DNA of 36,512 nt, taken from IMG/VR virus record IMGVR_UViG_3300037195_000603, positions 1-36,512 of that record. The stretch is one strand, 5' to 3'. This document shows, in pieces, positions 11,013-35,714 of this stretch. This stretch comes from a virus (taxonomy: Duplodnaviria > Caudoviricetes). The notes under the pieces were generated by a model that had not been told where the DNA came from, ran no database searches, and saw only the letters and a program-made list of their open reading frames with translations. The position numbers and the translations under genes were made by a program. Each line of letters starts with the position of its first letter. Within the stretch, counting starts at the first letter, position 1.

Positions 11013-11029
11013 CTATGAAGCCAAGTCAG

Positions 11030-11055: not shown

Positions 11056-11089
11056 TCCTCTACGTTTTCAAAGCCTATTTAGTAAAACT

Positions 11090-11680: not shown

Positions 11681-11681
11681 T

Positions 11682-11864: not shown

Positions 11865-12001
11865 TCCTTTTTTTGATAAGAAAATACAAACAGAAATAGA
11901 AATATTTAAACATCCAAAAATCATTCAATCTAAATTGTTGGGGTTAACATCAGAACATCAAGGCTATAACTTCTGGGGACAAATGCCAACAGCAAAATAC
12001 T

Positions 12002-13588: not shown

Positions 13589-13606
13589 CACCCGACCGTT
13601 CTTAAT

Positions 13607-17927: not shown

Positions 17928-18320
17928 ATGTCTGAAAAGACGAATACAAACGTAAAGAAAACGTATACAGATCCAGTGACTGGTAAGTTTATTCCAGGTA
18001 ATCCAGGAGGAGGTAGACCCAAAGGATCAATTAGTTTTGCTACTAAATGGAAGAAATTCATTGAGAAAATAGCTGATAATAATGAAGTTGAGTTTGATGA
18101 TGTAGAGAGAGAGCTTTTGTCAGTTGCATATAAGCAAGCAAAGGCAGGTAATTTTTCCTTTTATAAGGACATTTTTGATAGAGTTTATGGTAAGGCAAAG
18201 GATGAGGTTAAACATTCAGGAGCTATTGGAATGTTCAGTATTAAAGATTTTATAGAATTAACCCATGGATCAACTAGAGATACAGAGGGGTTTACAGACG
18301 TTAGAGAAATGGCGGAATGA
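17928..18320 (+). CDS. terS: Terminase small subunit (DUF5681-like)
   Basis: GKFIPGNPGGGRPKGS, DRVYGK, directly upstream of TerL. Confidence 0.75.
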   Translation: MSEKTNTNVKKTYTDPVTGKFIPGNPGGGRPKGSISFATKWKKFIEKIADNNEVEFDDVERELLSVAYKQAKAGNFSFYKDIFDRVYGKAKDEVKHSGAIGMFSIKDFIELTHGSTRDTEGFTDVREMAE

Positions 18321-19644
18321 TCCAACTGCCTTCATTTATGACTGCTGGGGTGTAAAACTATGGGACAAGTTAGAAACTATAGCCCAATCAGTCTGGACAA
18401 ATCAGAGGACAATCGTGCCTTCTGGTCATGGTATTGGCAAAACGTGGCTCAGCGCTCGTCTAGCCCTTGCCTTCCTGTACAGCTTCTATCCATCAAAGAT
18501 CATCACGACTGCGCCAACATGGCCGCAAGTGGAGACCTTGCTGTGGGGTGAGATCAGAAAAGCACATTCTGAGTCCAAGATACCTCTGGGCGGATTGCCA
18601 CAGAAAACAAAGCTTGAACTGTCTCCTGACTGGTTCCTACGTGGGTTGTCCACAACGGGAAGTGTAGCAGAGAGAGAGTTCGGAGCCACTAGATTCCAAG
18701 GATTTCACTCGGAAAACCTTTTGGTCATCTTAGACGAGGCACCTGGAGTTGAACCTTCAATCTGGATAGCCACAGAATCCCTTATCGTTGGGGATAACAA
18801 CAGGATACTTGCAATTGGAAACCCTACCTCTCCAACAGGAATGTTCTATGATGCTTGTAGATCACCCCTGTGGAATAAGATACAGGTATCATGCTATGAC
18901 CATCCCAATGTTAAAGAGAACAGAACTGTAATACCTGGTGCTGTAACACCCAATTGGATTGATGAGCGTAAGCAGGAATGGGGTGAAGACTCCCCACTTT
19001 ATAAGGCTAAAATATTAGGTGACTTCCCAGATGAGGGAGAGGATACACTGATACCATTATCATGGGCTGAGGATGCCATGCACAAACAATTGAAGGCAGA
19101 AGGTAAGAGAAGATTAGGGTGTGACGTAGCTAGATTTGGATCTGATAAGACAGTTATCTTTGAAATGAATGGCCCAGTAGCAAATTTATTAGACGTGACT
19201 GGGAAAGTTGATACAATGGTTACAGTAGGTAAAATTCGTTCCTATGCTAAAGATGATACTCTTATTGCTGTTGATGACAGTGGTGTCGGAGGCGGTGTTA
19301 CTGATCGCTTACGTGAGCTTGAGGACAGCGTTGATGCCGTCAACTTCGGAGAAAGAGCAATTGAACCAGAAAGATTTGCCAACTTAAAGGCAGAGGCATT
19401 TTGGTTATTAAGGGAGAGATTCAAACCAAATAGTCCAGATCCTATACAGATTCCAGATAGCCAAGAGTTGTTATTCCAATTAACAAGTATTAAGTACACC
19501 TACACGTCCAAAGGACAAATCAAGATAGAGAGCAAAGAGGATATGAAAAAGAGGGGGATGAAGTCACCTGACTTAGCTGATGCACTAGCCATTTGCAATT
19601 ACGCTGGAAGACGTAACAAGGAACCAACGATTACAATTCTATGA
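18265..19644 (+). CDS. terL: Terminase large subunit
   Basis: Walker A SGHGIGKT, Walker B VILDEA, GNP, nuclease GCDVARFGSD and SPDLADAL. Confidence 0.95.
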   Translation: MDQLEIQRGLQTLEKWRNDPTAFIYDCWGVKLWDKLETIAQSVWTNQRTIVPSGHGIGKTWLSARLALAFLYSFYPSKIITTAPTWPQVETLLWGEIRKAHSESKIPLGGLPQKTKLELSPDWFLRGLSTTGSVAEREFGATRFQGFHSENLLVILDEAPGVEPSIWIATESLIVGDNNRILAIGNPTSPTGMFYDACRSPLWNKIQVSCYDHPNVKENRTVIPGAVTPNWIDERKQEWGEDSPLYKAKILGDFPDEGEDTLIPLSWAEDAMHKQLKAEGKRRLGCDVARFGSDKTVIFEMNGPVANLLDVTGKVDTMVTVGKIRSYAKDDTLIAVDDSGVGGGVTDRLRELEDSVDAVNFGERAIEPERFANLKAEAFWLLRERFKPNSPDPIQIPDSQELLFQLTSIKYTYTSKGQIKIESKEDMKKRGMKSPDLADALAICNYAGRRNKEPTITIL

Positions 19645-22385
19645 TGGCTGACAAACTTAAAAACATATCTCACCAGATGAAGAAGAAGGGGATGAAGTGG
19701 TGGGAAATTGAAGACACATATGTTAAAGACTTCATGCTTCAAGAGGAGCTTTCAAACCTTAAAGGAGAGAAGGGAGATAAAGGCTCTAAAGGCTCAATTG
19801 GAAAAACTGGTAAGCAAGGTAAACAAGGTAGTAGAGGAGATAGGGGAACGACAGGAAAACATGGAAAGGTGGGATCAAGAGGGCTAACAGGAAAGACTGG
19901 AAAGACAGGCCTTGTAGGTAAGCAGGGTAAAGTAGGAGCACAGGGGCCTAAGGGGCCTAAAGGAGACAAAGGAGAATCTGGCAAACCAGGGCCACAGGGT
20001 AAGACTGGGCCAAAGGGAGATAAGGGTGATGCTGGTGAAACAGGAGATGTAGGAATGACTTTTAGGGGTCAGTACCAATCTGATACCCGATACAACAAAA
20101 ATGATGTTGTTTTCTATGCAGGCAGTTCTTTTATTGCACTAGAAGACAACAGAAATACTGCACCAAGTTTTACTATTGACCCTAGGTATAGAGATAACAC
20201 CTGGGGTATTTTGGCTATTAAGGGTGCTCAAGGTGGATCTGGTGCGTCATCCGAACAGTATGTCTTGGTAGATGGGACACGTGCCATGACAGGGGGCCTT
20301 GAGATAGTAGGTAGTGCTGATGAGTCCCAGTTAACTGTTTCTGCTCATTCAACACAGACAAATCCTATTTCAATCTGGGAAGATGATTCAGGTAATGCTC
20401 AGATAACATTTAGTGGAATAGGTGGTGCAGTATTCAATGAACAAGGCAATGACGCAGATTTCCGTATTGAGGGTGATGCAGATACTCACTTATTCTTCCT
20501 TGATGCCAGTGAAGACACCATTTCAATGGGAACATCTGATTCTTCCTATGTAAATGATGGTGCAACGATCTACCCTAAATTTCTTATTCAACGTGAGGCA
20601 GGGCCTGCAAAAACATCATTAGTAAACAGGCACTTCTCTGATACGTTTAATGAGCCTCCGTTCTTAACATTGGCTAAAGCTAGAGCTGCTGAAACAGCAC
20701 TTGTAGACGGTGATTGGGTAGGTATATTCCAATTCCTAGGACATGATGGTACTGATTACCAAGGGTCTACTATCATCAGAGGACAGGTAGATGACACTGT
20801 TTCAACAGGTGTGATGCCAATTGGATTGCTGTTCCTTACTGGTGATGCACAATCACAACAGACAAGTATTGTTTGTCATTCAGGTGGAAATGTAGGAATT
20901 AGAACCACATTTGCTAGTGCAAACTTTGAAGTAGAGGGAAATACTGTATTTAACCAATCTGGTGCAGATGTAGACTTCAGGGTTGAGGGTAGTGGAGTAG
21001 CAAACTTATTTGGCATTGATGGTGGTCTGCCTGCTGTACGCATTGGTGATGCCGTAGCTGGATCTGTAGCAGATTTTAGATCAACTGTAATTACCTTTAA
21101 TGAGAGCGGGGAAGATCAGAACTTTAGGGTAGAGACACTGAACAACACATTCATGTTCCACGTAGATGGTGGACTAGACACTGTTTACATCGGAACAACC
21201 GTTCTTGGTGCTATAGCAATATTTGGTGCAACCAGTATTGTTTTCAATGAAAATGGTGCAGATCAGGACTTTAGAATAGAGGGTGACACAGCAACCAATC
21301 TGTTTAACTGTAATGCAGGATTGGATTCTGTTCAGATTGGTACAACATCAGCAGGTGCCATAGCACAATTTGGACCTTCACTGATCACGTTCAATGAGAC
21401 AGCACAGGATCAGAACTTCAGGGTTGAAACGGTTAATAATCCTTTCATGTTCTTTGTTGATGCTGGAATAGACGCGGTACATATAGGAGATGCAGCAGCA
21501 GGTACATTAGCTAAGATCTCTACAGCAGAGATTAACTTCAATGATGCTGGTGCTGACATTGACTTCCGTGTTGAGGGTGATGTTGACCCTAATTTGCTTT
21601 TTGTTAATGCTGGAACTAATAGAGTTGGAATAGGAATTGCTGTTCCAAATGATAGATTGCACGTGAGTAATGGTTCAATCCTTAAAACTGGTACAACAAC
21701 AGTAGGAAGTAGAATTGAGAATGCTAGATTTAGTGCAAACAACCTTGGATCTATCAACATAATGAGTAAGAGCCGTAACGCGACAATTGGTAGTCATACA
21801 GTTGTACAAAATGGTGATATTTTGGGGCTTCATACATTCCAAGGATCAGATGGTTCTTCATTTGTAGAAAGTGCTCAAATAGCTGCTGAAGTAGATGGAA
21901 CACCAGGGGCAGGTGATGTACCTGGATTGATAAGTTTTCTAACACAGCCAGCAGGTGGAAGTTTGACAAAGAGACTTTCTGTCTATTCAAGTGGTAATAT
22001 TGAATTTAATGCAGGTACAAAGACAGAAGGATTGGTGTTTAGAAAGACTGCTGAAATTCAAACAACAGACGCAACTCAAACAACAGTAGATGGATTCGTA
22101 TTACTTGATGAGAATACTTATCATCTTAAAGCACGAGTAGTTGGAGTAAAGAGTGATGGGTCTGAAAGAGCTTCTTATGAAATTGATGCAACAGCTTATA
22201 GAACAGGTGCAGGAGTTGCGACATTACAGGGAAGTGTTACAAGTCTTCATACTCAAGAGAGTGATGCTACCTGGGATGCAACATTTACTGTAAATAGTAA
22301 TAGTGTCAGGGTTTCGGTTACTGGTGTAGCGGCAACAACCATTGAATGGGTTTGTGTTTTAGAAGTAATAAATATGAGTAATTAA
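19641..22385 (+). CDS. Collagen-like fibre / adhesin with 49-aa beta repeats
   Basis: 32 G-X-Y triplets, a CBM5/12-like segment (YNKNDVVFYAGSSFIAL), six FNxxGxDxDFRxE repeats, RVGIG fibre motif. Confidence 0.8.
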   Translation: MMADKLKNISHQMKKKGMKWWEIEDTYVKDFMLQEELSNLKGEKGDKGSKGSIGKTGKQGKQGSRGDRGTTGKHGKVGSRGLTGKTGKTGLVGKQGKVGAQGPKGPKGDKGESGKPGPQGKTGPKGDKGDAGETGDVGMTFRGQYQSDTRYNKNDVVFYAGSSFIALEDNRNTAPSFTIDPRYRDNTWGILAIKGAQGGSGASSEQYVLVDGTRAMTGGLEIVGSADESQLTVSAHSTQTNPISIWEDDSGNAQITFSGIGGAVFNEQGNDADFRIEGDADTHLFFLDASEDTISMGTSDSSYVNDGATIYPKFLIQREAGPAKTSLVNRHFSDTFNEPPFLTLAKARAAETALVDGDWVGIFQFLGHDGTDYQGSTIIRGQVDDTVSTGVMPIGLLFLTGDAQSQQTSIVCHSGGNVGIRTTFASANFEVEGNTVFNQSGADVDFRVEGSGVANLFGIDGGLPAVRIGDAVAGSVADFRSTVITFNESGEDQNFRVETLNNTFMFHVDGGLDTVYIGTTVLGAIAIFGATSIVFNENGADQDFRIEGDTATNLFNCNAGLDSVQIGTTSAGAIAQFGPSLITFNETAQDQNFRVETVNNPFMFFVDAGIDAVHIGDAAAGTLAKISTAEINFNDAGADIDFRVEGDVDPNLLFVNAGTNRVGIGIAVPNDRLHVSNGSILKTGTTTVGSRIENARFSANNLGSINIMSKSRNATIGSHTVVQNGDILGLHTFQGSDGSSFVESAQIAAEVDGTPGAGDVPGLISFLTQPAGGSLTKRLSVYSSGNIEFNAGTKTEGLVFRKTAEIQTTDATQTTVDGFVLLDENTYHLKARVVGVKSDGSERASYEIDATAYRTGAGVATLQGSVTSLHTQESDATWDATFTVNSNSVRVSVTGVAATTIEWVCVLEVINMSN
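19764..20051 (+). repeat. Collagen (Gly-X-Y)32 repeat, Lys-rich
   Basis: Uninterrupted triplets from GEK to GDV. Confidence 0.95.
20949..21640 (+). repeat. Five tandem 147-nt (49-aa) repeats
   Basis: FNQSG/FNESG/FNENG/FNETA/FNDAG each start 49 aa apart (20949 to 21537). Confidence 0.9.
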
Positions 22386-22392
22386 AAAATTT

Positions 22393-22617
22393 ATGACAGA
22401 CATAAAAGAACAAACAATAGAACAAATTGTAACCAATGATGATGGTGTGATTGAGAAGAAAATCTGGACTCTCACATCTACAGAGGAGTTAACTGTGCAA
22501 ACTAAGATAGCCGCAAAGTTTAAGTCTTTACTTACAACATACATTGAGGATGAGGAATCAATTGATTATGTCGTTGAGACAATGCAGACGATTCTAAAAG
22601 ACAATGAGGTGCTATGA
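22393..22617 (+). CDS. Hypothetical protein
   Basis: Operon-like packing. Confidence 0.55.
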   Translation: MTDIKEQTIEQIVTNDDGVIEKKIWTLTSTEELTVQTKIAAKFKSLLTTYIEDEESIDYVVETMQTILKDNEVL

Positions 22618-23183
22618 CGAAATATTGGCGCAGACAGATGGATCATGCACCTACTTTTTCTTTCTACACAGAGCTAATGAAGCTTTGTATTGAGTTTAAA
22701 CCTAAGAATGTACTGGAGATAGGAACTGGCTGGGCTATTAGTGGTTCAGCCTTTCTTGAATCTGGTTGTGAGACACTGGATACAATAGACCCTAATCATG
22801 CAGCAGCTTATGGTAGACAGGCAATTGCGGAGCTAGATGACCACATAAGCAAGGGCCAAATTGTCACACCACTCACTGCAAGGGCAGAGAATATCTGTCC
22901 AGATCTTATTAGTGAAGGAAAAGAATATGATCTGATCTTTATAGACGGATCACACAATTATGAGCATGTAGTCGTTGACCTTCGCTATGCCCTTCAACTG
23001 GTAAAAGAGGGTGGAAAGATTATTCTTGACGACTACTTTCATATCAATAACTATGCTCCCCCAAAAGGGCCAGAGCATTTCTACGGAGTTGCTCGTGCAG
23101 CAGCGGAGGTGTTAATTGGGACAAAACACAAGATTGAGGTGATTCCAACTGAAACTAATGGTTTCCTAGTTATACATCTATGA
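22614..23183 (+). CDS. Class I SAM methyltransferase (Methyltransf_24-like)
   Basis: VLEIGTG, YDLIFIDGSHNYE, GGKIILDDY. Confidence 0.9.
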   Translation: MTKYWRRQMDHAPTFSFYTELMKLCIEFKPKNVLEIGTGWAISGSAFLESGCETLDTIDPNHAAAYGRQAIAELDDHISKGQIVTPLTARAENICPDLISEGKEYDLIFIDGSHNYEHVVVDLRYALQLVKEGGKIILDDYFHINNYAPPKGPEHFYGVARAAAEVLIGTKHKIEVIPTETNGFLVIHL

Positions 23184-23347
23184 GTGACAAACAACTTTCT
23201 CAAAACGAAAAACATCTTCTAAAAGAGGTGCGGAGCATTGATCATGGATCAGTTACTGTTTACATAAAGAACGGGACACCATGGAGATTAGAGGAAGTTA
23301 AACATAGTGTTGTATTAGGGAGCTTTACAGGTGAGTTAATACCGTAG
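23180..23347 (+). CDS. DUF2292/YezD-like micro-protein, 55 aa (not in the ORF track)
   Basis: MSDKQLSQNEKHLLKEVRSIDHGSVTVYIKNGTPWRLEEVKHSVVL..., matching the IxxGSVxIxxxxG pattern, with ATGA overlap. Confidence 0.65.
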   Translation: MSDKQLSQNEKHLLKEVRSIDHGSVTVYIKNGTPWRLEEVKHSVVLGSFTGELIP

Positions 23348-23373
23348 TAAGCTATAAGTAATCAATTTAATTA

Positions 23374-23424
23374 GCCTACCGAAGAACGGATGGCGCACGT
23401 TTTATTTCGTGGGCCTATTTTTTT
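23374..23424 (+). promoter_or_regulatory. Overlapping hairpin plus terminator-like hairpin (candidate attenuator) before the portal gene
   Basis: GCC-TA-CCG-AAGAA-CGG-AT-GGC shares its GGC with GGCGCACG...CGTGGGCC-TATTTTTTT. Confidence 0.55.
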
Positions 23425-25629
23425 ATGGGAATACTAGACATTTTTCGACAACCTGTACCACCTCTACCTGAGAAGAAGGCACCAAAGATCAAGAATGCTC
23501 CTGCTGGAGAGTTCATTGCTCCTGCATTTAAGAACTCAATCCCTTCTGATAAGGACGCAACTGAACTTATTGACGCTTCAGCACTTGGGTGGGTATACGC
23601 ATGTTCGTCGGTCATTGCCGATGCTGTTGCTCGGACACCAATCAAACTGTTTAAGAGAACTCCAGATGGCCCAATTGAGATAGAACAACATCCAATTCTG
23701 GAGCTTTTATTTCAGGTTAATAACTTCACCACTTACTACGATCACGTCGTAAAAACACAGATGTATCTTGAGGGTGTGGGTGAAGCACCCTGGTATATCG
23801 AGAGATCAGGGACAAAACCTAAGAACATCCTGCTTTTACGCCCTGATAGGATAGAGATCATCTTTGATGAAAAGGACATTATTGGTGGATATAAGTACAA
23901 GAATTCTGATGGATCGTTTGTAAAGATTGAAGCAGATGACATTATTTTCCTTAGAAACCCATCACTTACGAGTGAATTTAGAGGCTACGGCACACTACAA
24001 GCTGCTGCCGTGACAGTAGACACAGAGGACTTTGCTGAGAAGTACAACAGGAACTTCTTCTTTAATGGTGCAAAGCCTGACTTTGTTCTTGAAACAGACT
24101 CAACACTCACTGAAAGAACGATTAGAAGGCTTAAAAAGGCATGGGAAGCTCTCTACAGGGGTGTGGATAACGCACATAAGATGGCAATCCTAGACAGTGG
24201 TTTGAAGCTAAATACCCTAGGAATGACACAAAAGGACATGGATTTCTTCAACCAACTCCAGTGGAGTAGGGATAAAATCCTAGCTATTTTCCGTGTTCCT
24301 AAGCCTGTACTGGGAATAACCGAGGATGTGAACCTAGCAAATGCTGAGGTTGCAGAGCTAACCTTTGCTAAATACACAATTGTTCCACGTCTTGAGCGTT
24401 TGATTCAGCAGCTAAATGAGTTTCTTGTCCCTATGTTTGGGGATAACCTGTTCCTAGAATTTGAAGATCCAACACCTGAAAACAGGCAGGAACTTGCTGA
24501 TTTCTACAACAAAGCCATTGAGGGCGGTTGGATGACGGTTAATGAGGTACGTGAGGCAGAGGGATTCCCTGGTCTTATCGGGGGTGACGCTGTTCTAAAG
24601 CCAGTGAACCTAGTCCCACAGATGAGCGTAGATCCAACTTCACAAGTGGAAGAAGAAAAATCATTTACACTCCAGATGATGAACAACAAGATCACAAATT
24701 CACGTAAGCGAGAGAAGATTGCAGAAGCACTACAGCCATTACTAAAGAAGAAAATCAGGAAAGATGTTGAGAAGAAGAGGGTAAAAAAAAAAGCAAAAAA
24801 AAAGATAAAGAAGAAGTCCTACCAAAGCTTGCTGTCAACACAAGAGTCCAAGACCCTGTTCCACGAGTCACTGATCCTAAAGAGCGCACAGAAGTTTGAG
24901 GATGATATTGAGACGATGTTCCAGAATGTGTTTAAGCAGCAAGAGAGAATCATCTTGGATGCGTTTGATCAACAGGAAGTCATCAAGGCTCCTAGTGAGG
25001 AAGATACAAACAAACTCATAGATGATCTATGGGATAAAGATACAATGAATCAACTAATCGTACTTGCCTATGCACCACTCTTCCTAGAACTGTTTCGTGA
25101 GCAGTCTAGCGCAACTCAAGATTTTCTTAATCTACGGGTAGGAGATGTTACCCGAAATGCAGATGTGGTCTCTGAGATAACAGAAACAAATCTACAGTTA
25201 TCTGGCACTGTCAATGACGCAACGATTAAGAACATTAAAAAGACATTAGCACTGGGGGTTGTGGAGGGTGAAGGAGCTAACATGCTTAAGGAGCGAATCC
25301 AACAGGTGTTCACAGATGCAAGTGATAAGAGGGCTGAGATGATTGCACGTACTGAGACTATCCGAGGATCTAATCTAGCTGCCAATACTGTATATGAGAA
25401 AGCTGGAGTTAAGACCAAGGAGTGGATCACAGCTATAGACGAGCGAACTTGTCAGTGGTGTGGGCCTATGGATGGAACTCAATTGAAAGTTAGCGACAAT
25501 TTCTTTGATAAAGGTTCAACTTTTGAGGGGAGAGAAGGAGGAATACTAAATCTAAATTATTCCGACACTAAAGGGCCACCTCTACATCCAAATTGCCGAT
25601 GTACGTTGGGGCCTGTAATCGAGATATAA
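23425..25629 (+). CDS. HK97-family portal protein fused to a Mu gpF/SPP1 gp7-like minor head domain
   Basis: WVYAC, LRPDRI, FFFNGAKP, IFRVP, MTVNEVR (portal), then RAEMIARTE, KEW, DERTCQWC and PPLHPNCRC (gpF). Confidence 0.92.
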   Translation: MGILDIFRQPVPPLPEKKAPKIKNAPAGEFIAPAFKNSIPSDKDATELIDASALGWVYACSSVIADAVARTPIKLFKRTPDGPIEIEQHPILELLFQVNNFTTYYDHVVKTQMYLEGVGEAPWYIERSGTKPKNILLLRPDRIEIIFDEKDIIGGYKYKNSDGSFVKIEADDIIFLRNPSLTSEFRGYGTLQAAAVTVDTEDFAEKYNRNFFFNGAKPDFVLETDSTLTERTIRRLKKAWEALYRGVDNAHKMAILDSGLKLNTLGMTQKDMDFFNQLQWSRDKILAIFRVPKPVLGITEDVNLANAEVAELTFAKYTIVPRLERLIQQLNEFLVPMFGDNLFLEFEDPTPENRQELADFYNKAIEGGWMTVNEVREAEGFPGLIGGDAVLKPVNLVPQMSVDPTSQVEEEKSFTLQMMNNKITNSRKREKIAEALQPLLKKKIRKDVEKKRVKKKAKKKIKKKSYQSLLSTQESKTLFHESLILKSAQKFEDDIETMFQNVFKQQERIILDAFDQQEVIKAPSEEDTNKLIDDLWDKDTMNQLIVLAYAPLFLELFREQSSATQDFLNLRVGDVTRNADVVSEITETNLQLSGTVNDATIKNIKKTLALGVVEGEGANMLKERIQQVFTDASDKRAEMIARTETIRGSNLAANTVYEKAGVKTKEWITAIDERTCQWCGPMDGTQLKVSDNFFDKGSTFEGREGGILNLNYSDTKGPPLHPNCRCTLGPVIEI

Positions 25630-25975: not shown

Positions 25976-27043
25976 ATGAAGTCTAAACAATTTCTGACTG
26001 GAGCAATTAAGAGTTCAGGTGAGGATTTTTTCTCAGGTATTGCCTCTACAAAGGCTGAAGACCGAGATGGGGAGACGATTGACCAAAAAGGGTGGGATCT
26101 CAACCATTACAAGAAAAGCCCAGTTCTCTTATTTGGCCACAATCAGTTTGCTCCCCCTGTGGGAAAAACATTTAACCATCGGATTTCAAATTCGGGTCTT
26201 GAGTTTGATTTCCAATTCGCCTCAACTCCATTCGCTCAGGAATTGAAGACTCTTGTTGAGGAGGATTTCCTAACGGCTTTCTCTGTTGGGTTCATTCCAA
26301 AGGAATTCGGAGACACCAAGTCTGGTGAATCTACGTTTACTAAATCAGAACTCTTAGAGATCTCTTTAGTATCTGTACCATCTAATCCTGATGCCTTAGT
26401 TACATCTCGTGCGTTTAAAAGCCTCTCAGATGAGACAAAGGAATACATTATGGGTGAGATTATTAAAAAAGGTGTAGTGAATCACGGTAAGCAGAAGTTC
26501 CCTACACGCAGAGAAGATTTTGAACTAGATGTAGAAGGTGAAGTAGAAAAAGCAAAACTAGACGACTTAAAAGTCATGGCTACATGGATTGATGAGACAG
26601 CACCATCTGATAAGAATAGCTACAAACTGATCCATCATGCCTCAAGTAAGGAATGGCCTCTTATCAAGGAAGCAATTGAGGAGAACTTGAAGAATCTAGA
26701 TGAAGTACCTGAAGTAGAACGTGAAGCTGCTAAGGAGCATTTGGAAGCACATCTGAAAGACTTTGAAGAAACTGTAGAGGCTGTGGAAGAGGAGATTGAG
26801 GAAGAAGAGGTTGCTGAGGATGAGGAAAAGAGTGCTCCACTGGAACTGGCTGACGAGGATCGTAAACTATTACAACGAGTGGCAAATGGACTTGAGCTGG
26901 TTGGCTCAGATTCATTACTAGATGCCAGTGCTAAAGGTCGGCCGTTGGGGGAGAATATAGATCAAAAACAGATCATGATTCGTGCCCTTCAAAGAGTTGC
27001 GAAGTCCGTTCAAGAGAGACTTCGTGACTTAAAACGAAAATGA
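25976..27043 (+). CDS. HK97-family prohead protease with a C-terminal extension
   Basis: DRDGETI, PVLLFGH, FSVGF, LLEISLVSVPSNPDA. Confidence 0.92.
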   Translation: MKSKQFLTGAIKSSGEDFFSGIASTKAEDRDGETIDQKGWDLNHYKKSPVLLFGHNQFAPPVGKTFNHRISNSGLEFDFQFASTPFAQELKTLVEEDFLTAFSVGFIPKEFGDTKSGESTFTKSELLEISLVSVPSNPDALVTSRAFKSLSDETKEYIMGEIIKKGVVNHGKQKFPTRREDFELDVEGEVEKAKLDDLKVMATWIDETAPSDKNSYKLIHHASSKEWPLIKEAIEENLKNLDEVPEVEREAAKEHLEAHLKDFEETVEAVEEEIEEEEVAEDEEKSAPLELADEDRKLLQRVANGLELVGSDSLLDASAKGRPLGENIDQKQIMIRALQRVAKSVQERLRDLKRK

Positions 27044-27044
27044 T

Positions 27045-28265
27045 ATGGGAAAAGAAGCAATTGAAAAGATGCGAGCATTGCTCAAGTCTATGGAAGAAGA
27101 CGAGAAAGAGACTGATGTTGTTGAGGAGACAACTGAAGAAGTTGTAGAAGAGGCTGAGGAAGCCGCTGAAGATGAAGAGACCTCTGAAAAGGATCTCGAA
27201 GAAGCAGCAAAGAATGCTGCAAGCATCATCTCAAAGGAACTCAACCTTGAAAAACTCGACAAACTCTTTGACCTTCTTGAAGAGATTGACGACCCTGCTA
27301 AGAACATCAACAAGATGCTTGGTAAGAAGTCAGTAGAGAAGACCGTCAATTCCATGACAAAGGAAGAGATCATCGTTGGATTTACAAAGGCACTCATTGA
27401 GGACAATAAGTCTGTTATCAAGGCATTGTCTGAAGGAACTGCTGCTGACGGTGGAAACCTCTTCCCTGACGAGTTCCGTTTCGAGATTGTTAAGAGGCTC
27501 ATTCAACAGCCTCGTATGCGTTCCCTCGTGCGCGTTATTCCAATGCGACGTGACGTAATGAACATTCCATCGGAAGGTTCTAAAGTCGCTGTCTCATGGG
27601 GTACTGAGAATACAGCTATTTCAACCACCACGGCTGACTTTGGCTTGCTCACCCTCACGGCATACCGCATGAACTCTATTCTTTACACGTCACGCGAATT
27701 GGTCGCAGACGCAACAGAGCTTGGAGTTGTAGACTTGATCATTGATCAGTTTGCAGACGCAGTAGGAGAAGAAGAAGATAAAGTTATTATTCAAGGAACA
27801 GGTTCAGGTCAGCCAACAGGTTTGACCTCAGCTACTGGACATCACACTGTGACAACCAGTGGAAACCTAGACTTTGATGACATGATTGATGTCTTCTATC
27901 AACTTCCACAACAGTACCGAAACACCTCTACTTGGTTGGTTAATACCGCCAACGTACGGGAGCTTCGCAAAATCACAGATAAGAACTCACGATACATTTG
28001 GATTGACTCACCAGTACCTGGTACACCTGCAACAATCCTGGGCCGCCCAGTGATTGAGAATACATGGGTACCAGAAGCATCTATCTTCTTTGGAGATTAT
28101 AAGCGTGCTTATTACTTAGGTGATCGAGAACAGATGTCTGTTGAAACAACAACAGAAGGTGCAGATACTTGGGAACGACACCAAGTAGGTATCAAAGTCA
28201 CAGAACGTATCGCTGGAATTACTGTTCTAGCTGATGCTCTTGCAGAACTAGAGGCCATTCCTTAA
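27045..28265 (+). CDS. Major capsid protein (HK97 fold)
   Basis: Acidic delta/scaffold N-terminus, DGGNLFP, GTGSGQPTG, LRKITDKNSRYIW, ILGRPV, FGDY. Confidence 0.93.
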   Translation: MGKEAIEKMRALLKSMEEDEKETDVVEETTEEVVEEAEEAAEDEETSEKDLEEAAKNAASIISKELNLEKLDKLFDLLEEIDDPAKNINKMLGKKSVEKTVNSMTKEEIIVGFTKALIEDNKSVIKALSEGTAADGGNLFPDEFRFEIVKRLIQQPRMRSLVRVIPMRRDVMNIPSEGSKVAVSWGTENTAISTTTADFGLLTLTAYRMNSILYTSRELVADATELGVVDLIIDQFADAVGEEEDKVIIQGTGSGQPTGLTSATGHHTVTTSGNLDFDDMIDVFYQLPQQYRNTSTWLVNTANVRELRKITDKNSRYIWIDSPVPGTPATILGRPVIENTWVPEASIFFGDYKRAYYLGDREQMSVETTTEGADTWERHQVGIKVTERIAGITVLADALAELEAIP

Positions 28266-28287
28266 ACCGAAGATACTTAATCTTTGT

Positions 28288-28332
28288 AGGTTTATTCTCT
28301 CCCTCATCCCCACGGGGGAGAGAGGTGAGCTT
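28288..28332 (+). terminator. Long hairpin after the capsid gene (terminator or mRNA stabiliser)
   Basis: TCTCTCCCTC...GGGGGAGAGA core with extended imperfect pairing, no clear U-tract. Confidence 0.45.
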
Positions 28333-28342
28333 ATAAAAACAT

Positions 28343-28954
28343 ATGGCATTAGACGACAATTCCTTGACAACTCTGGCTAGAACAAAAGACTACTTAGGTG
28401 TTACTAACGATAGTAATGACACACTTCTTGAGAGGCTTATTGATGCTGCCTCATCGTTCATTGAAACCTATTGCGATAGAACATTTAAGTTAACTTCTTA
28501 CATTCTTCAGCAAGAAGGTTCAGGGACAGATACATTGATTCTTAGAAACTATCCAGTTATTGGTGGAGTAGTTCTTGATGAGAACCAGTCAGGTGACTCA
28601 ACACAGGACTACAACACCATTGAATCAAAGAATTACTGGGTATTTAATACAGATGGATACTTACAATTTCTCAATTCGGAGACAGTCTTTATTGCAACTC
28701 CTGAGCAGTATCAAGTTACTTATGAGGGAGGTTACAGAGTGCAAGGAGCAACGGTTACAGGACAACACATTGCACTACCACTTGACCTAGAACTTGCCAC
28801 ATGGAAATTAGTCTCATCTATCTTCAACACTAGAAACACAGATGGAATTTCAAGTCAGACACTTGGTAATTACTCAGTAACATTTATTCAGGCAATGGAA
28901 ATGGATAATGAATTAAGAATGACTCTGGATAATTATAAACATCCGAATGTATGA
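28343..28954 (+). CDS. Head-tail connector (gp6/gp15-like)
   Basis: LARTKDYLG, LIDAASSFIETYCDR, YEGGY, LPLDL, SQTLGNYSVTF. Confidence 0.82.
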   Translation: MALDDNSLTTLARTKDYLGVTNDSNDTLLERLIDAASSFIETYCDRTFKLTSYILQQEGSGTDTLILRNYPVIGGVVLDENQSGDSTQDYNTIESKNYWVFNTDGYLQFLNSETVFIATPEQYQVTYEGGYRVQGATVTGQHIALPLDLELATWKLVSSIFNTRNTDGISSQTLGNYSVTFIQAMEMDNELRMTLDNYKHPNV

Positions 28955-29268
28955 GGTTTTTCTTCCGCAATCAGATTATTGTATCGCGACTGAAGACCAC
29001 AAATGGAAATTTCAAGGAATATCAATCAACTGGTACGGCTGAAGCTCACATTCAGAGGAATCAGGAATCACGGGATGAACAACAGTCGGGTGTGTTCGCA
29101 AAGCAATTCCACATATGGGCACCTATAGGCACTGATATTAAACCTGGAGATAGAATACGAGATGAAAATGGTGTGGAATACGATGTCACGAATACTTATG
29201 AAAGTTACTTTGGTTGTACTCAATTCATTGAGATCTTAGTAGAGTTAACTGAAGGCTATAGCGACTAA
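28951..29268 (+). CDS. Head closure/adaptor protein
   Basis: Position and DIKPGDRI motif. Confidence 0.65.
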   Translation: MRFFFRNQIIVSRLKTTNGNFKEYQSTGTAEAHIQRNQESRDEQQSGVFAKQFHIWAPIGTDIKPGDRIRDENGVEYDVTNTYESYFGCTQFIEILVELTEGYSD

Positions 29269-29269
29269 T

Positions 29270-29728
29270 ATGTCAGTCACCATCACAGTGTCACAAAGTG
29301 AATTATCTGCATTCAATAAGAAGTTTGACACAATGGCATCTGGTACTAAAGCAACTTTGCAACAGGCAGTGAATACGTCAGCCTTGCTGATGGAGAGCAA
29401 TATAAAGAAAGAGATTCAATCAACTGTTACGGACACTGGAATCCTAGCTTCCTCTGTAATAACAACCACAGGAACACTCAGGGCAGAGGTAGGGCCGACA
29501 GTAGACTATGGAATCTATGTAGAAAAAGGTACTGATCCTCACTTTCCACCCATCTCAGCGATATCGCCTTGGGCAAAGAGACACGGAATTGATCCATTTG
29601 CCTTGCAACAGTCCATTGGAAAGAAGGGAACAGAAGCAAATCCATTCTTTGAAAGGGCAGTTAAGGACTCAATATCTGGTGTGAAAACGATATTTGAAAA
29701 GGCGATAGGGTCAATAATAGACTTATAG
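29270..29728 (+). CDS. HK97 gp10-like tail completion protein
   Basis: DTGILASS, YGIYVEKGT, GTEANPFFERA. Confidence 0.8.
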   Translation: MSVTITVSQSELSAFNKKFDTMASGTKATLQQAVNTSALLMESNIKKEIQSTVTDTGILASSVITTTGTLRAEVGPTVDYGIYVEKGTDPHFPPISAISPWAKRHGIDPFALQQSIGKKGTEANPFFERAVKDSISGVKTIFEKAIGSIIDL

Positions 29729-29729
29729 T

Positions 29730-30146
29730 ATGGCATTATTCTCAACAATTAAGACGAAAGTAACAACGATTTGTTCTGATAATTCTCTCATAAACGAGGC
29801 GTTTAACTATGACAAGCCCAGGTTTGACAAGACACCAGCTTGCACAGTTGTCCCTAGTGGAAACGAAGCTCTCTTTGAGGACACAGCTAATAATAGAAGA
29901 ATATATGCTTTTACAATAACCATCTTCGTTCCCTGGGATGCCCATGGAGCAACAGATGCTGAAGATACAATGGTAGATGTTCTCGATAGTCTCTTAGACG
30001 ATTTTGATAAAGACTTCACACTTACTGGCTCTGCCATCATGGTTGACGCAGCACCTAGTGCATGGGGATATCAGGAGAGAGAGAAATTATATAGAACAGC
30101 TCAAATTAACCTAAAAGTCAAAACACTATTTGACGTAACACAATAA
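29730..30146 (+). CDS. Tail terminator-like protein
   Basis: Position between gp10-like and tail tube genes, ~138 aa. Confidence 0.6.
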   Translation: MALFSTIKTKVTTICSDNSLINEAFNYDKPRFDKTPACTVVPSGNEALFEDTANNRRIYAFTITIFVPWDAHGATDAEDTMVDVLDSLLDDFDKDFTLTGSAIMVDAAPSAWGYQEREKLYRTAQINLKVKTLFDVTQ

Positions 30147-30155
30147 TCTAAAAGT

Positions 30156-31136
30156 ATGTCTACACCATACATCGGAAGACTCGTTCACATTGGTTCTGCA
30201 CTTGAAGCAGTCAGAGGTGAAGAAGTCGCTCCAACAACTTGGATTCCTAAGACGTTACTCACGGTGGAAGATGTTGCTGAAAAAGTGACATCAGTAGAAT
30301 CACGTGGGAACATTTGGGGATTCTCTAATGAAGAGCTTGTCGTCGGACGACACGCAGAAGGTGATCTTGAAATGGAACTTGGTAACGAGACCATTGCAAC
30401 TTTCCTTCAAGCAACCATGGGTACTGCATCATCAGGAGCCTTTAATGGAGTGTACCAACACACATTTACCCTACAGGATGATAATGCACATGACTCACTT
30501 ACACTTACTGTTGTAGATGAGGTTGATGAGGTTCAGTTCGGACGTGCCATGATTAACTCATTCGGTATCTCAGTTGCAACAGGTGAACTTGTTAAAGCAA
30601 CTGTGAATTTCATGTCTAATCCGCATACAGATTCAGATGGACATTCAATGACTTATAATACTAACGAGTTCAAATTTGGACATCAGCACGTCACATTGAA
30701 GATCGCTAGTGATGCATCTAGTTTAGATGCTGCATCAGCATTGTCTATTAAGGATTTCAATATCACAATTAACAAGAACTTGGTACTTGATAATGCGCTT
30801 GGAACTGTCCAGCCAACTGATATCTTGAATCAGTCATTCACCATTGAAGGTTCATTCACACTGAATTCAAACAATAGAACATTTCGTGATCTCATGAATG
30901 ATGCAACATATCAGGCTTTACGCATGGACATTGTGAATACTGATCAAACAATTGGATCAACCAACCCTGCACTTCGTATTGATCTATCACGATGTTCGTT
31001 CTTTGACTGGAGTAAAGATCAACCAAATGATGAACTGGTGACGGAAACAATCAATTTCCGTGCTCTGTATGATGTAGTTAATAAAAATGTAGTGGACGAT
31101 TTCTATCTAGTGAATCAAGCTGCATCAGTATCTTAA
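30156..31136 (+). CDS. Major tail tube protein
   Basis: Position, beta-rich, YQHTFT and FNITINKNL patterns of tube proteins. Confidence 0.75.
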   Translation: MSTPYIGRLVHIGSALEAVRGEEVAPTTWIPKTLLTVEDVAEKVTSVESRGNIWGFSNEELVVGRHAEGDLEMELGNETIATFLQATMGTASSGAFNGVYQHTFTLQDDNAHDSLTLTVVDEVDEVQFGRAMINSFGISVATGELVKATVNFMSNPHTDSDGHSMTYNTNEFKFGHQHVTLKIASDASSLDAASALSIKDFNITINKNLVLDNALGTVQPTDILNQSFTIEGSFTLNSNNRTFRDLMNDATYQALRMDIVNTDQTIGSTNPALRIDLSRCSFFDWSKDQPNDELVTETINFRALYDVVNKNVVDDFYLVNQAASVS

Positions 31137-31153
31137 TAACTAATTGATTTCTT

Positions 31154-31456
31154 ATGGCAAATCGTTTCGTTGAGGAGAATGATCTAAAACAAATTGATTT
31201 GGGGGATGGAGATTGGGTAAAGATTCCAGAAGCAATTTCTTATGGAATCATTGAGTCTTTGGGAACTTTAGATACTAAAGATCCAAAGCAATTAACAGCA
31301 TTCTTATCTACTTTGCTAAAGGAGTGGAACTTAAAGGATGCTTCTGATGCGGTAGTCCCTATTACCGAAGAAGCAATTAAGAAATTGGAATTCAAAACAA
31401 TTTCTCAGATAATGGAAGAAGTGAATAAACAATTGGTAGTCCCAAAAGCAAGATAG
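31154..31456 (+). CDS. Tail assembly chaperone (gpG-like)
   Basis: Between tube and tape measure, LKEWNL motif, ends at a slippery site. Confidence 0.75.
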   Translation: MANRFVEENDLKQIDLGDGDWVKIPEAISYGIIESLGTLDTKDPKQLTAFLSTLLKEWNLKDASDAVVPITEEAIKKLEFKTISQIMEEVNKQLVVPKAR

Positions 31457-31665
31457 ACTCTCTACATAGGGCGGTAAGAGGCGTAGAGGGTGACAAGGAT
31501 TATATTGACTACATCATGAGCGAGAAGTTCGGTCTTGATTGGATGCAATATGATTACGCACGGATGAAGAAATTTATTCACATCCTAATAGAACAGGATA
31601 AATATCAAGGTCAATTACAGAAAATGCAAGAGAGAAAGATGAATAGAGCTAAGTATAAACGATAA
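31441..31665 (+). CDS. -1 frameshift extension of the tail chaperone (gpGT-like)
   Basis: C CCA AAA at 31441-31447. The -1 frame is open for 74 codons to TAA at 31663-31665, 2 nt before the tape measure ATG. Confidence 0.75.
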   Translation, partial: PKSKIDSLHRAVRGVEGDKDYIDYIMSEKFGLDWMQYDYARMKKFIHILIEQDKYQGQLQKMQERKMNRAKYKR

Positions 31666-31667
31666 TT

Positions 31668-33623
31668 ATGGCAACAGAATCCCTAAGCGTTATAATCTCG
31701 GTTGTAGATAAGGCATCCGCTGAACTCAAAACGATTGGGTCTTCTCTTGAGAGTGTCTCAGATCAATTTTCAGCAGTAGGAGATACATTGACCAAAACAG
31801 GTACAACTCTATCTTTAGCTTTGACGGCCCCGATTGTTGCTTTCGGGGCTGTTGCTGTTAGTGAAGCAGCTACAGCAGAGGGGGCTATGAGCAAATTCAC
31901 CACAGTGTTTGCTGAACAGTCAGATGAAATGCTCGACTTCGTTAATGAACTACGTCAAGAAATGCCACAGGCTACTAGTGAAATAGTTGCAATGGCATCT
32001 GGTGTACAGGATCTTCTTGTCCCTATGGGTGTAGCTAGGGAAGAAGCTACTGACATGACTCAGAATTTTCTTGAACTTTCCAACCAGATTGCTGCATTTA
32101 ACGATGTATCACCTGAAGATGTTTTGGACGCAATCAAATCAGGTCTTGTTGGTTCAAGTGAACCTTTGAGGCAGTACGGTGTTGATGCACGTGTAGCCGC
32201 ATTGGAATCAGTAGCCTTATCTGAGGGACTTCTTGAAGCAGGACAATCCATTAGCGATCTGACACCTGAAGTAGCAGCTCAAGTTCAAGCTCAGGCACTT
32301 CTAGCTCAAATTACCAAACAATCAACTGATGCCATTGAAGGCTTTGCAGCCAACCAGGATACTAATATCCGTACTTTCCAGGAGCTTACCGCTTCCTTCA
32401 CAGACATGGCTGCTGTTGTGGGAGCAATCCTGCTACCAGTCATAGCTCCTATTGTTGAGAAACTAATTGATTGGCTCAATGCATTCTCTAACTTAGACAA
32501 GAGCACGCAGACAATCATTCTTGTTGTCGCAGCATTAGCAGCCGCACTAGGCCCAGTTCTCATAGTCTTAGGATTCATGGCCTCTGCCATAGGATCTATT
32601 CTTGCGATATTACCTGCCCTTGGAGTAGCTCTGGGGGTTGCTTCAACAGCAATGACAATCATGTTAGGCCCTGTGGGACTTGTAGTAGCAGCAATTGTGG
32701 CACTTATTGCAGTAATTGCACTCATAGTTACTCATTGGGAAGAGATAGTAGCTGTCACTGACTCAGCTTGGGATGCGATCAGTAGCACTGTTTCCTCTGC
32801 AATAACAGCGGTTAGCGATGCAATTGCCTCAGTATTTGGCACCATTTCAGACTTTTTCTCAGCATGGTTTGAGTTCACAAAGGCAGCCTTCCTCTTTGAG
32901 ATAGGGTTAATTGCTGGAATTGTGATCACTCTATTTGATGCTCTAGGCATTGATATTGTTCAGATCTTCACAGACATATTCACCTTCTTTGGTGAGATTT
33001 GGGAGAGTATTTCCAGTCTGTTCTCCTCATCGTTAGACTTCATAAGTGCTGTGTGGAGCACTGCATGGACAGCAATTTCTGATACTGCATCAACGGTGTG
33101 GTCGGCAATTGTTCTAGCCACGTCAACACAATTTGAAAAACTAAAAACAATCTTTTCTTCAGGTCTGGAGATTCTATCAATTGGTTGGGATTCGTTCTGG
33201 GAAGGATTGGCAAACACAGTTGAGAGCGTATGGTCTTCAATCAAGAGTATTGTTATTGACAGCATCAACTTTGTTATTGAAAAAATTAACTCATTCATTC
33301 AGGCAGTGAATTCAATTGCAGCAGCAGCCAATGTTATCCCTGGAGTCTCGGTTCCTGTCATACCTGAAATCCCAGCACTTTCTTTTGCAGAGGGTGGGAT
33401 TGTTCCTGGCCCTGTAGGTCAAGCAGTACCTGCCATTGTCCACGGCGGTGAGCAAATCATTCCTGTGGGTGGAAGTGCAAGTGCATCAACAGGAGCAAAC
33501 ATAACAGTTAATGTGACAGGTAATACTATTTCTAATCAGCTTGATCTATCAGATATAGCAATGCAGATAGGTGAAGAAATAATGGGAGTATTTAAGCTAC
33601 AGACTAAGACTGGATCGTCATAA
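31668..33623 (+). CDS. Tape measure protein
   Basis: 651 aa, Ala/Ser-rich helical, EPLRQYG, hydrophobic middle, periodic Trp/Phe repeats, FAEGGIV...VHGGE. Confidence 0.9.
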   Translation: MATESLSVIISVVDKASAELKTIGSSLESVSDQFSAVGDTLTKTGTTLSLALTAPIVAFGAVAVSEAATAEGAMSKFTTVFAEQSDEMLDFVNELRQEMPQATSEIVAMASGVQDLLVPMGVAREEATDMTQNFLELSNQIAAFNDVSPEDVLDAIKSGLVGSSEPLRQYGVDARVAALESVALSEGLLEAGQSISDLTPEVAAQVQAQALLAQITKQSTDAIEGFAANQDTNIRTFQELTASFTDMAAVVGAILLPVIAPIVEKLIDWLNAFSNLDKSTQTIILVVAALAAALGPVLIVLGFMASAIGSILAILPALGVALGVASTAMTIMLGPVGLVVAAIVALIAVIALIVTHWEEIVAVTDSAWDAISSTVSSAITAVSDAIASVFGTISDFFSAWFEFTKAAFLFEIGLIAGIVITLFDALGIDIVQIFTDIFTFFGEIWESISSLFSSSLDFISAVWSTAWTAISDTASTVWSAIVLATSTQFEKLKTIFSSGLEILSIGWDSFWEGLANTVESVWSSIKSIVIDSINFVIEKINSFIQAVNSIAAAANVIPGVSVPVIPEIPALSFAEGGIVPGPVGQAVPAIVHGGEQIIPVGGSASASTGANITVNVTGNTISNQLDLSDIAMQIGEEIMGVFKLQTKTGSS

Positions 33624-33624
33624 T

Positions 33625-35145: not shown

Positions 35146-35146
35146 T

Positions 35147-35713: not shown

Positions 35714-35714
35714 T

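What the first reader, a model, noticed from the sequence alone, without database searches (positions are those of the whole stretch)
23180..23424. DUF2292-like micro-protein plus mutually exclusive hairpins: candidate antitermination switch for the structural operon
Seen: an unannotated 55-aa ORF (23180-23347) followed by hairpin A, GCC-UA-CCG-AAGAA-CGG-AU-GGC (23374-23394). Its 3' GGC is also the 5' base of hairpin B, GGCGCACG-loop-CGUGGGCC (23392-23415, one G-G mismatch). Hairpin B is followed by UAUUUUUUU and then directly by the portal ATG. B looks like an intrinsic terminator, and forming A would remove its basal stem. Inference: the small protein, from a family with no established function that I know of, binds A and permits read-through into the head and tail genes. 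That would be a compact protein-RNA late-gene switch and would assign a role to DUF2292-like proteins.
Basis: partly seen in the sequence, partly recalled or inferred. Interest (0 to 1): 0.8.

Follow-up and report, generated by a model that had tools for sequence, protein, structure and literature searches.

The report
Small-protein RNA gate before phage portal
Just before its virus-shell genes this uncultured phage carries a tiny gene of an uncharacterised family followed by a small RNA hairpin that is predicted to compete with a likely transcription stop signal, and the same gene-hairpin pairing recurs in other phages and several bacterial phyla, so this protein family likely works as an RNA-binding switch that lets transcription read through.

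Summary
A 55-aa DUF2292-like ORF (just under Pfam's cut-off; its three closest relatives pass) is followed by hairpin A (23374-23394), which shares three bases with a terminator-like hairpin B and a U-tract that abuts the portal ATG. Hairpin A alone is not significant, but it belongs to a conserved motif with no Rfam match. The bacterial form follows 39 of 78 DUF2292 genes, against 0 of 78 reverse strands and 1 of 209 other genes. The phage form follows 8 of 9 independently found phage homologs, with covarying stems and an overlapping terminator. A model trained without this window ranks the site first in the window, though weakly (E 0.43). Motif sites occur in 15 of 27 DUF2292-positive versus 2 of 124 negative genomes, also far from the gene; some phages hold 2-4 sites. 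Best reading: the protein binds A and antiterminates head/tail transcription (about 0.6). Binding is untested, and Gram-negative copies mostly lack terminators. It works like BglG/RAT but is not a member. The scan noted this system earlier on other DNA.

The parts
23180..23347 (+). 55-aa DUF2292/YezD-like small protein, predicted helix plus beta-hairpin; proposed RNA-binding antiterminator
   Evidence: Pfam PF10055 18.3 bits, cut-off 22. Closest small relatives P0009, P0013, P0035 pass the cut-off at 26.5, 22.1, 29.0 bits. 26.9 bits with an HMM built only from bacterial DUF2292 hits. AlphaFold2: helix 8-19, strands 24-30 and 33-40, mean pLDDT 73.5.
23374..23394 (+). Hairpin A, the conserved motif and proposed antiterminator/protein site: outer 3 bp, internal loop with the conserved A before the inner stem, inner 3 bp, 5-nt A-rich loop
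   Evidence: -7.8 kcal/mol, and it dominates folds of transcripts ending before 23415. Top match in the window for model R2, built without the window: 14.1 bits, E 0.43. Third in the window for bacterial-type model R1, 9.3 bits.
23392..23415 (+). Hairpin B, predicted intrinsic terminator stem; its three basal pairs use the 3' strand of A's outer stem
   Evidence: -12.9 kcal/mol; pair probabilities 0.93-0.97 in the fold of 23366-23430; terminator state favoured over the A state by 1.9-3.1 kcal/mol depending on the end point.
23416..23424 (+). U-tract of the predicted terminator, directly before the portal start codon
   Evidence: The phage rarely uses Shine-Dalgarno pairing (3 of 46 starts examined), so a U/A-rich stretch before an ATG is not unusual here.
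23425..25629 (+). Portal protein fused to a MuF-like head morphogenesis domain; first gene behind the gate
   Evidence: PF04860 E 1e-73 and PF04233 E 1.5e-18; phrog_2662.
25976..36494 (+). Co-oriented head and tail genes that would be gated: prohead protease, major capsid, connector, tail tube, baseplate hub-like protein
   Evidence: Pfam matches. The simple scan lists no + strand terminator-like site between 23425 and 36512. That these genes form one transcript is inferred.
18265..23183 (+). Upstream co-oriented genes: terminase large subunit, 914-aa collagen-repeat protein, 74-aa ORF, methyltransferase; likely the transcript that runs into the gate
   Evidence: No sigma-70-type promoter match on the + strand between 22000 and 23424.

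Best explanation
A 55-residue DUF2292-like gene is followed by a small conserved hairpin whose outer stem shares three bases with a predicted intrinsic terminator in front of the portal gene, and the protein likely binds that hairpin in the nascent RNA, holding it so the terminator cannot form and RNA polymerase would read on into the head and tail genes. Shown by sequence and comparison: the anatomy, the family-wide conservation and covariation of the hairpin, its overlap with terminators in phages and Bacillota, and its co-occurrence with the gene. Predicted by folding: hairpin A forms first and is displaced by the terminator, which is 2-3 kcal/mol more stable, so the default is OFF. Inferred and untested: that the DUF2292 protein is the binder, that it recognises the internal loop and loop adenines rather than the stem sequence, that it acts in trans on several sites, and that in this phage the gate delays virion-gene transcription until the protein, made from the upstream part of the same operon, has built up.
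For: (1) A sequence-only pattern for the bacterial 4-bp form lies within 200 nt after 39 of 78 DUF2292 genes from four phylum samples, versus 0 of 78 reverse strands and 1 of 209 other ORFs. Its two free stem positions are both Watson-Crick paired in 44 of 48 matches, versus 13.9 +/- 2.8 when partners are shuffled. (2) Phage homologs found by protein alone carry the 3-bp form plus terminator in 8 of 9 distinct loci (L128, L293-L295, L297, L299-L301; not L296). Covariation score 0.767 versus 0.241 shuffled and at most 0.098 for slid partners; 7 of 8 pairs show two-sided changes. (3) An overlapping terminator is found at 10 of 10 phage sites and 10 of 10 Bacillota sites, versus 5 of 70 chance look-alike hairpins. 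The terminator state is the lowest-energy fold in the window and in 9 of 10 phage sites. (4) Downstream genes in phages are packaging and head genes: portal (L128), prohead protease (L291, L295), genes before the major capsid (L293) or small terminase (L292, L294). (5) In the same 151 genomes a strict motif pattern occurs in 15 of 27 DUF2292-positive and 2 of 124 negative genomes; the reversed control pattern gives 0. Sites more than 1 kb from, or on another contig than, a detected gene occur in 6 of 26 versus 2 of 124 genomes; 23 of 26 sites have a terminator. (6) Four phage records hold 2-4 sites, many just behind TTGACA-type promoters. In 5 of 6 larger records the best DUF2292-scoring small ORF lies within about 300 nt upstream of one site, which is the pattern of one trans-acting factor. 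(7) Model R2, trained without the window, ranks this site first in the 36.5-kb window.
Against: No binding, termination or expression data. The window's site is a weak member: E 0.43 with R2, with the next window hit at 13.3 bits; E 2.4 and third place with R1. It has a 2x2 loop instead of the usual 2x1, and the exact variant was not found beside a DUF2292 gene in 29 viral pattern hits. B has a G-G mismatch and the energy gap is small, so termination may be leaky. The window protein is neutral (pI 6.8, 7 K/R versus 7 D/E) and lacks four lysines that are 84-95% K/R in 113 relatives, although R18 and R36 are kept. Half of the bacterial DUF2292 loci (39 of 78) show no motif within 200 nt. Intrinsic terminators overlap the motif in 0 of 6 Pseudomonadota, 5 of 19 Omnitrophota and 1 of 4 Desulfobacterota loci. 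L299 folds to the A state and L294 is nearly balanced. The patterns and phage sites were chosen after looking at these loci, and the co-occurrence counts are not corrected for kinship. Only one site and no promoter match were found in this window (record about 54% complete).
Confidence: 0.6

Rival explanations
1. The hairpin is the DUF2292 protein's RNA site, but the main output is not antitermination at an intrinsic terminator: binding controls translation initiation, Rho access or RNA stability. Here B and the U-tract cover positions -33 to -1 of the portal start, so the switch would free or block the ribosome landing zone.
For: In Pseudomonadota, Omnitrophota and Desulfobacterota the motif mostly lacks a terminator and often comes as two copies close to the next start codon. 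One phage site in L322 ends directly at an ATG with no terminator. This phage uses little Shine-Dalgarno pairing. ANTAR targets can overlap ribosome-binding sites (PMC12591593, passages read).
Against: All 20 phage and Bacillota sites tested, and 23 of 26 (a partly overlapping set), overlap a hairpin plus U-tract, usually tens of bases upstream of the next start. The window site has a 9-nt U-tract.
Confidence: 0.17
2. The hairpin-terminator switch is real but is flipped by another factor (a host RNA-binding protein, a Nus-type factor or another phage protein); the DUF2292 gene is only a co-inherited passenger or a co-factor.
For: No binding evidence; neutral pI and lost lysines in this protein. 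One phage group has a different small ORF before the motif that aligns only weakly to DUF2292 (HHalign probability 7%). Two DUF2292-negative genomes have a pattern match, one of them with a terminator.
Against: Tight positional link to DUF2292 genes across four phylum samples and phages, and near absence from genomes without the gene. A CsrA-like reading (GGA recognition, recalled) fails because 8 of 10 phage sites lack GGA in the 3' arm.
Confidence: 0.12
3. This window's copy is a decayed or leaky member: the family switch exists elsewhere, but here B is only a weak constitutive terminator or structured leader that sets the ratio of upstream to virion-gene mRNA.
For: Weak model scores, atypical 2x2 loop, G-G mismatch in B, region z-score -1.15, protein below the Pfam cut-off.
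Against: All six pairs of A, the conserved A before the inner stem, the overlap and the U-tract are intact. The ORF is intact and keeps the residues that are invariant or nearly so in the family (G23, E38, S43, R18, R36). The flank variants seen here occur in bacterial members (L247, L252, L253, L264).
Confidence: 0.08
4. Leader-peptide attenuation: the ribosome translating the small ORF, not its product, controls the choice between A and B.
For: The hairpin often lies 0-30 nt after the stop codon.
Against: Spacing ranges from 0 to about 300 nt, and many sites stand alone behind promoters or far from the gene. The protein sequence is conserved as a folded domain. Here A starts 26 nt after the stop.
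Confidence: 0.03

Closest known systems
BglG/SacY/LicT (CAT-domain) antiterminators with RAT hairpins
   Same: A small RNA stem-loop partly overlaps an intrinsic terminator, and a bound protein prevents terminator formation (PMC12591593, section 7 read). The CAT domain is also about 55 aa.
   Different: No CAT or PRD Pfam match. CAT is a four-stranded all-beta domain (PMC12591593, passage), whereas this protein is predicted as one helix plus two strands. It is a stand-alone protein with no sensor domain; the hairpin is about 21-24 nt rather than 30; targets are phage virion genes and varied bacterial operons rather than sugar catabolism.
ANTAR antiterminators (AmiR, NasR, EutV)
   Same: An RNA-binding protein acts in trans on several leaders, and sites may overlap terminators or ribosome-binding sites (PMC12591593, passages). 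Tandem copies of the present motif occur in Gram-negative loci.
   Different: ANTAR is a three-helix bundle that binds twin hexaloop hairpins; there is no ANTAR match here, and the motif is a single hairpin with an internal loop.
DUF2292 / YezD / OscA (PF10055)
   Same: Weak Pfam match, close relatives above the cut-off, shared invariant residues. Published notes call the family uncharacterised: B. subtilis yezD is repressed by Spx and CymR (PMC3479203, passage); Pseudomonas oscA is co-transcribed with sbp and linked to sulfur starvation (as cited in PMC2996968, passage; original paper not held).
   Different: This is a phage member with a 9-residue C-terminal extension shared with its four closest relatives; no mechanism has been described for the family in the papers found.
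Phage lambda N/nut and Q late antitermination (recalled, no paper read)
   Same: A phage protein licenses transcription through terminators into later genes; N uses a small RNA hairpin.
   Different: N and Q modify RNA polymerase processively. Here each site physically overlaps its own terminator and multi-site phages repeat the hairpin at each gate, which points to local, site-by-site action. No sequence match to N or Q families in Pfam or PHROGs.

Membership tests
DUF2292 (PF10055) | Score at or above Pfam's gathering cut-off (22 bits) | tested here: not met
   18.3 bits, E 0.0018; 17.7 bits in the genome search.
DUF2292 (PF10055) | Homology to members that pass the cut-off | tested here: met
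   Closest small relatives (45-53% identity) score 22.1-29.0 bits; 26.9 bits with an independent HMM of bacterial members. Filed as DUF2292-like, a diverged homolog, not as a formal Pfam member.
DUF2292-linked hairpin motif (defined here) | Inner stem opened after a conserved A, asymmetric internal loop, paired outer stem, downstream of a DUF2292 gene | tested here: met
   Top window hit of held-out model R2, 26 nt after the gene; the loop is 2x2 rather than 2x1 and the score is modest (E 0.43).
DUF2292-linked hairpin motif (defined here) | 3' strand of the outer stem doubles as the 5' arm of an intrinsic terminator | tested here: met
   (prediction only).
BglG/SacY/LicT CAT antiterminators | CAT RNA-binding domain (PF03123) with PRD domains | tested here: not met
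   No such Pfam match at E up to 1; predicted helix plus two strands.
BglG/SacY/LicT CAT antiterminators | Protein-bound hairpin that excludes an overlapping terminator (mode of action) | not testable with these tools
   The overlap is present and conserved; binding and read-through need experiments.
ANTAR antiterminators | ANTAR domain (PF03861) and twin-hairpin target | tested here: not met
   No Pfam match; a single hairpin in the window.
Catalogued Rfam RNA families | Match to an Rfam 15 model over the motif | tested here: not met
   Window 22900-23700: only a partial L10_leader match at E 7, far below its cut-off. No family covers the motif in 20 loci searched by E-value or in 20 loci searched at gathering score (one locus was in both sets).
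Any solved protein fold | Structural match of the predicted model | tested here: inconclusive
   The model is small (pTM 0.44); best VIA Z 3.3 (rmsd 7.4, 45 aligned), no Foldseek match at E up to 0.001.

The most novel reading that the evidence does not exclude
DUF2292/YezD/OscA proteins are an undescribed, sensor-less class of about 50-residue RNA-binding antiterminators that recognise one small internal-loop hairpin. Phages use the pair as a late-gene master switch, placing the hairpin-terminator behind ordinary host promoters at up to four operons, and bacteria use the same pair to run regulons of their own, in Gram-negatives without intrinsic terminators.
Probability: 0.5. Interest if true: 0.82.

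Novelty: new variant of a known kind. Interest (0 to 1): 0.66.

Why it matters
DUF2292 occurs in 5-20% of the genomes sampled from four phyla (27, 9, 30 and 7 of 151 each) and includes B. subtilis YezD and Pseudomonas OscA, yet no mechanism was found in print. A defined RNA target of about 24 nt makes its function testable with one binding assay and one transcription assay. For phage biology it would be a third way to time virion genes, besides late sigma or activator proteins and processive N/Q-type antitermination. A 55-aa protein with a short RNA site would also be a compact part for synthetic gene switches.

Tried and rejected
Exact-hairpin scans of viral contigs gave only chance hits (70 distinct in the first; 29 loci in the second), none beside a DUF2292 gene: the hairpin alone is not evidence. 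Single-sequence searches found almost no relatives; most hits were FG-GAP-type repeat proteins (one checked) and were dropped, keeping three small proteins. Six portal-related loci (four inspected) have the terminase directly before the portal, with no small gene or hairpin. PF10055 was found in 0 of 49 other viral records. The homodimer prediction gave no verdict (score 0.34, mark 0.42). Fold and solved-structure searches gave no usable match. No RNA holder was listed for this region. No second significant motif site was found in the window. No sigma-70 promoter match lies before the gate. The two-state energies for loci other than the window were cut too early and were discarded; one search replaces them. 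Two loci mis-oriented were redone. CsrA-type GGA recognition was rejected. A DNA-operator reading was rejected because the motif is strand-specific, tolerates G-U pairs (U-G in 16 of 42 rows at one pair) and overlaps terminators. A metabolite riboswitch was rejected because the motif is only about 24 nt and its downstream genes are unrelated. A recalled link to PBSX XtrA was searched in papers only (listing) and not tested. Literature searches found no description of this protein-RNA pair. Searches were swamped by plant OSCA channels (25 of 153 and 30 of 97 listed), subscription journals are mostly not held, and the supplement of PMC5737381 (224 RNA motifs) could not be read and may bear on novelty.

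Full report
Setting. The window is a whole IMG/VR virus record of 36,512 bases, linear, about 54% complete; a metagenome copy, L129, differs at 2 positions over 6.2 kb and at none in the switch. The gene order on the + strand is terminase large subunit (18265-19644), a 914-aa collagen-repeat protein, a 74-aa ORF, a methyltransferase, the 55-aa ORF, a 77-nt gap, then portal-MuF, prohead protease, capsid and tail genes. The host is unknown; only 3 of 46 start codons examined have Shine-Dalgarno-like pairing.

Observation. Folding shows that A (-7.8 kcal/mol) dominates transcripts that end before 23415 and that B (-12.9) takes over once its 3' arm is made. The state with A's inner stem plus full B beats the state with full A plus B's top four pairs by 1.9-3.1 kcal/mol. 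Only A's outer stem competes with B. The region as a whole is not unusually stable (z -1.15), and exact copies of hairpin A arise by chance: 70 distinct ones in viral contigs had no DUF2292 gene and 5 had a terminator-like hairpin.

The protein. It scores 18.3 bits against DUF2292, below the 22-bit cut-off. Its three closest small relatives pass, an HMM made only from bacterial members gives 26.9 bits, and a profile search returned 524 relatives, most of the 120 listed carrying PF10055. AlphaFold2 predicts a helix and a two-strand hairpin. It keeps G23, E38, S43, R18 and R36 but is neutral (pI 6.8; family median 8.1) and lacks four family lysines, which is a caution for an RNA-binding role.

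Bacterial test. I sampled 151 genomes from each of four phyla, named from the record titles of their centre genomes: Bacillota, Pseudomonadota, Omnitrophota and Desulfobacterota. PF10055 was found in 27, 9, 30 and 7 genomes. Up to 30 loci per call, plus three, gave 78 gene loci. A pattern that does not demand pairing at the two variable stem positions matched within 200 nt after 39 of 78 genes, 0 of 78 reverse strands and 1 of 209 other ORFs (shuffles: mean 0.2 loci); both free positions were Watson-Crick paired in 44 of 48 matches, against 13.9 +/- 2.8 for shuffled partners. The pattern was written after viewing these loci and describes the 4-bp form, which the window's 3-bp form does not match. 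On 42 aligned instances, chosen with a pairing filter, covariation was 0.425 versus 0.224 shuffled.

Phage test. L128 was found by protein alone: a DUF2292 gene (36 bits), a hairpin with the inner stem reversed relative to the window's, an overlapping terminator, then a portal of the same PHROG family. A second protein search gave 11 viral loci. Two of them (L291, L292) had first been found by a motif pattern and seeded the query, and L298 duplicates L297; of the remaining 8, 7 have the hairpin and terminator and L296 shows none in the 260 nt viewed. With L128 that is 8 of 9. Sites were picked by eye. Their alignment (10 phage and 2 bacterial rows) has covariation 0.767 versus 0.241 shuffled, 0 of 500 shuffles as high, and at most 0.098 for slid partners. 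L301 has the order terminase, DUF2292-like gene, gate, 665-aa ORF; that ORF had no PHROG match at 1e-5, so calling it a portal rests on position only. Model R2, built from this alignment without the window, ranks 23373-23395 first in the window (14.1 bits, E 0.43; next 13.3 bits, inside a gene). The bacterial model R1 ranks it third (9.3 bits). The site is thus a modest variant whose weight comes from lying 26 nt after the gene and overlapping a terminator.

Terminators. An overlapping hairpin plus U-tract was found for 10 of 10 phage and 10 of 10 Bacillota sites, but for 0 of 6 Pseudomonadota, 5 of 19 Omnitrophota and 1 of 4 Desulfobacterota loci, where 9 loci have two copies. The terminator state is the minimum in 9 of 10 phage sites; L299 favours A and L294 is within 0.2 kcal/mol.

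Evidence for a trans-acting factor. A recalled short pattern gave 36 viral loci, many intergenic and followed by terminators, some after small genes and some alone before structural or lysis-like genes. Nine of these records were fetched whole. R2 found 4 sites in G689, 3 in G686, 3 in G691 and 2 in G682 at E below 0.05; in G689 each sits just behind a TTGACA-type promoter read by eye. A strict profile found a homolog in only 4 of 34 records, but among 1,492 small ORFs the best-scoring one per record lay within about 300 nt upstream of a site in 5 of 6 larger records, at weak scores of 6-14 bits. In the 151 Bacillota genomes a strict pattern hit 15 of 27 DUF2292-positive and 2 of 124 negative genomes (reversed control 0). 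Counting only distant sites, by hand from coordinates and without the centre genome, gives 6 of 26 versus 2 of 124 (Fisher p 3.5e-4, not corrected for kinship). Undetected diverged genes near those sites cannot be excluded.

Mechanism. The most likely reading is local antitermination. The default is termination before the portal; the small protein, made from the upstream part of the same transcript, accumulates, binds hairpin A as it emerges, and keeps its outer stem from joining the terminator base, so head and tail genes come on late. The stems vary but stay paired while the loop adenines are conserved, which fits recognition of shape and loop bases (inference). No promoter match was found before this gate, so it is read as a mid-operon gate. 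Rivals are control of translation or Rho by the same pair, another binder, a decayed local copy, and ribosome-coupled attenuation.

Known systems and print. Rfam has no family over the motif. The logic matches BglG/RAT (PMC12591593: abstract, section 7 and passages read), but the protein has no CAT, PRD or ANTAR domain. For the family I saw only passages: yezD listed as unknown, with no survival phenotype on deletion (PMC6385201); yezD repressed by Spx and CymR (PMC3479203); oscA of unknown function beside sulfate transport genes (PMC2996968); a DUF2292 gene among regulated genes (PMC7921472). The supplements of PMC2864571 hold no DUF2292, COG5583 or yezD; the main text of PMC5737381 has no DUF2292 and its supplement could not be read. 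Ten paper searches (listings only unless noted) found no description of the pair. Earlier notes of this scan describe the same system on other DNA; they were read after my reading was formed and are not counted as support.

Verdict. A real, conserved, uncatalogued RNA element tied to DUF2292 genes, present here as a variant in front of the portal gene. The protein-dependent antitermination mechanism is likely but untested. It is a new variant of a known kind of control; interest 0.66.

Noticed in passing
window 2212-14850: A large block of surface- or DNA-modification genes for a phage: APS kinase-like, sulfotransferase-like, cytidylyltransferase, UDP-glucose dehydrogenase, epimerase, polysaccharide deacetylase, three glycosyltransferases and several methyltransferases.
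   Followed up: no
window 19641-22385: A 914-aa protein with N-terminal collagen repeats and a long repetitive beta-rich region sits between the terminase large subunit and the portal, an unusual place for a fibre-like gene; L128 has a similar-looking gene after the portal.
   Followed up: no
window, 46 start codons: Only 3 of 46 starts have Shine-Dalgarno-like pairing and the leaders are A/U-rich, which suggests a host that uses little SD initiation.
   Followed up: partly
L134, L136, L139, L143, L147, L152, L154 (motif at locus position 1501): A group of phages has a 53-57-aa ORF ending 1-3 nt before the motif and terminator, followed in most by a 75-150-aa gene that resembles a late-transcription activator (resemblance recalled; the PHROG match is of unknown function). 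The small ORF aligns only weakly to DUF2292. It may be a two-step cascade.
   Followed up: partly
L230-L234, P0121, L146, L309:16145-16426: Tandem two-domain DUF2292 proteins occur in several genomes and phages, which hints that single-domain members act as dimers.
   Followed up: partly
L215:1290-1641 and L239:1170-1641: A SAM riboswitch (L215) or a cobalamin riboswitch (L239) lies shortly upstream of the DUF2292 gene and its hairpin-terminator, suggesting stacked regulation.
   Followed up: no
L258-L282 (Omnitrophota), L284, L289: Many DUF2292 proteins end in a conserved short acidic-glycine tail, and some of these loci lack the motif pattern.
   Followed up: no
L322:5687-5710: A motif-like hairpin behind a TTGACA-type promoter ends directly at a start codon with no terminator.
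   Followed up: no
window 4092-4121 and 5277-5293 (+): Two well-formed terminator-like hairpins in intergenic DNA of the left arm, without the conserved motif.
   Followed up: no
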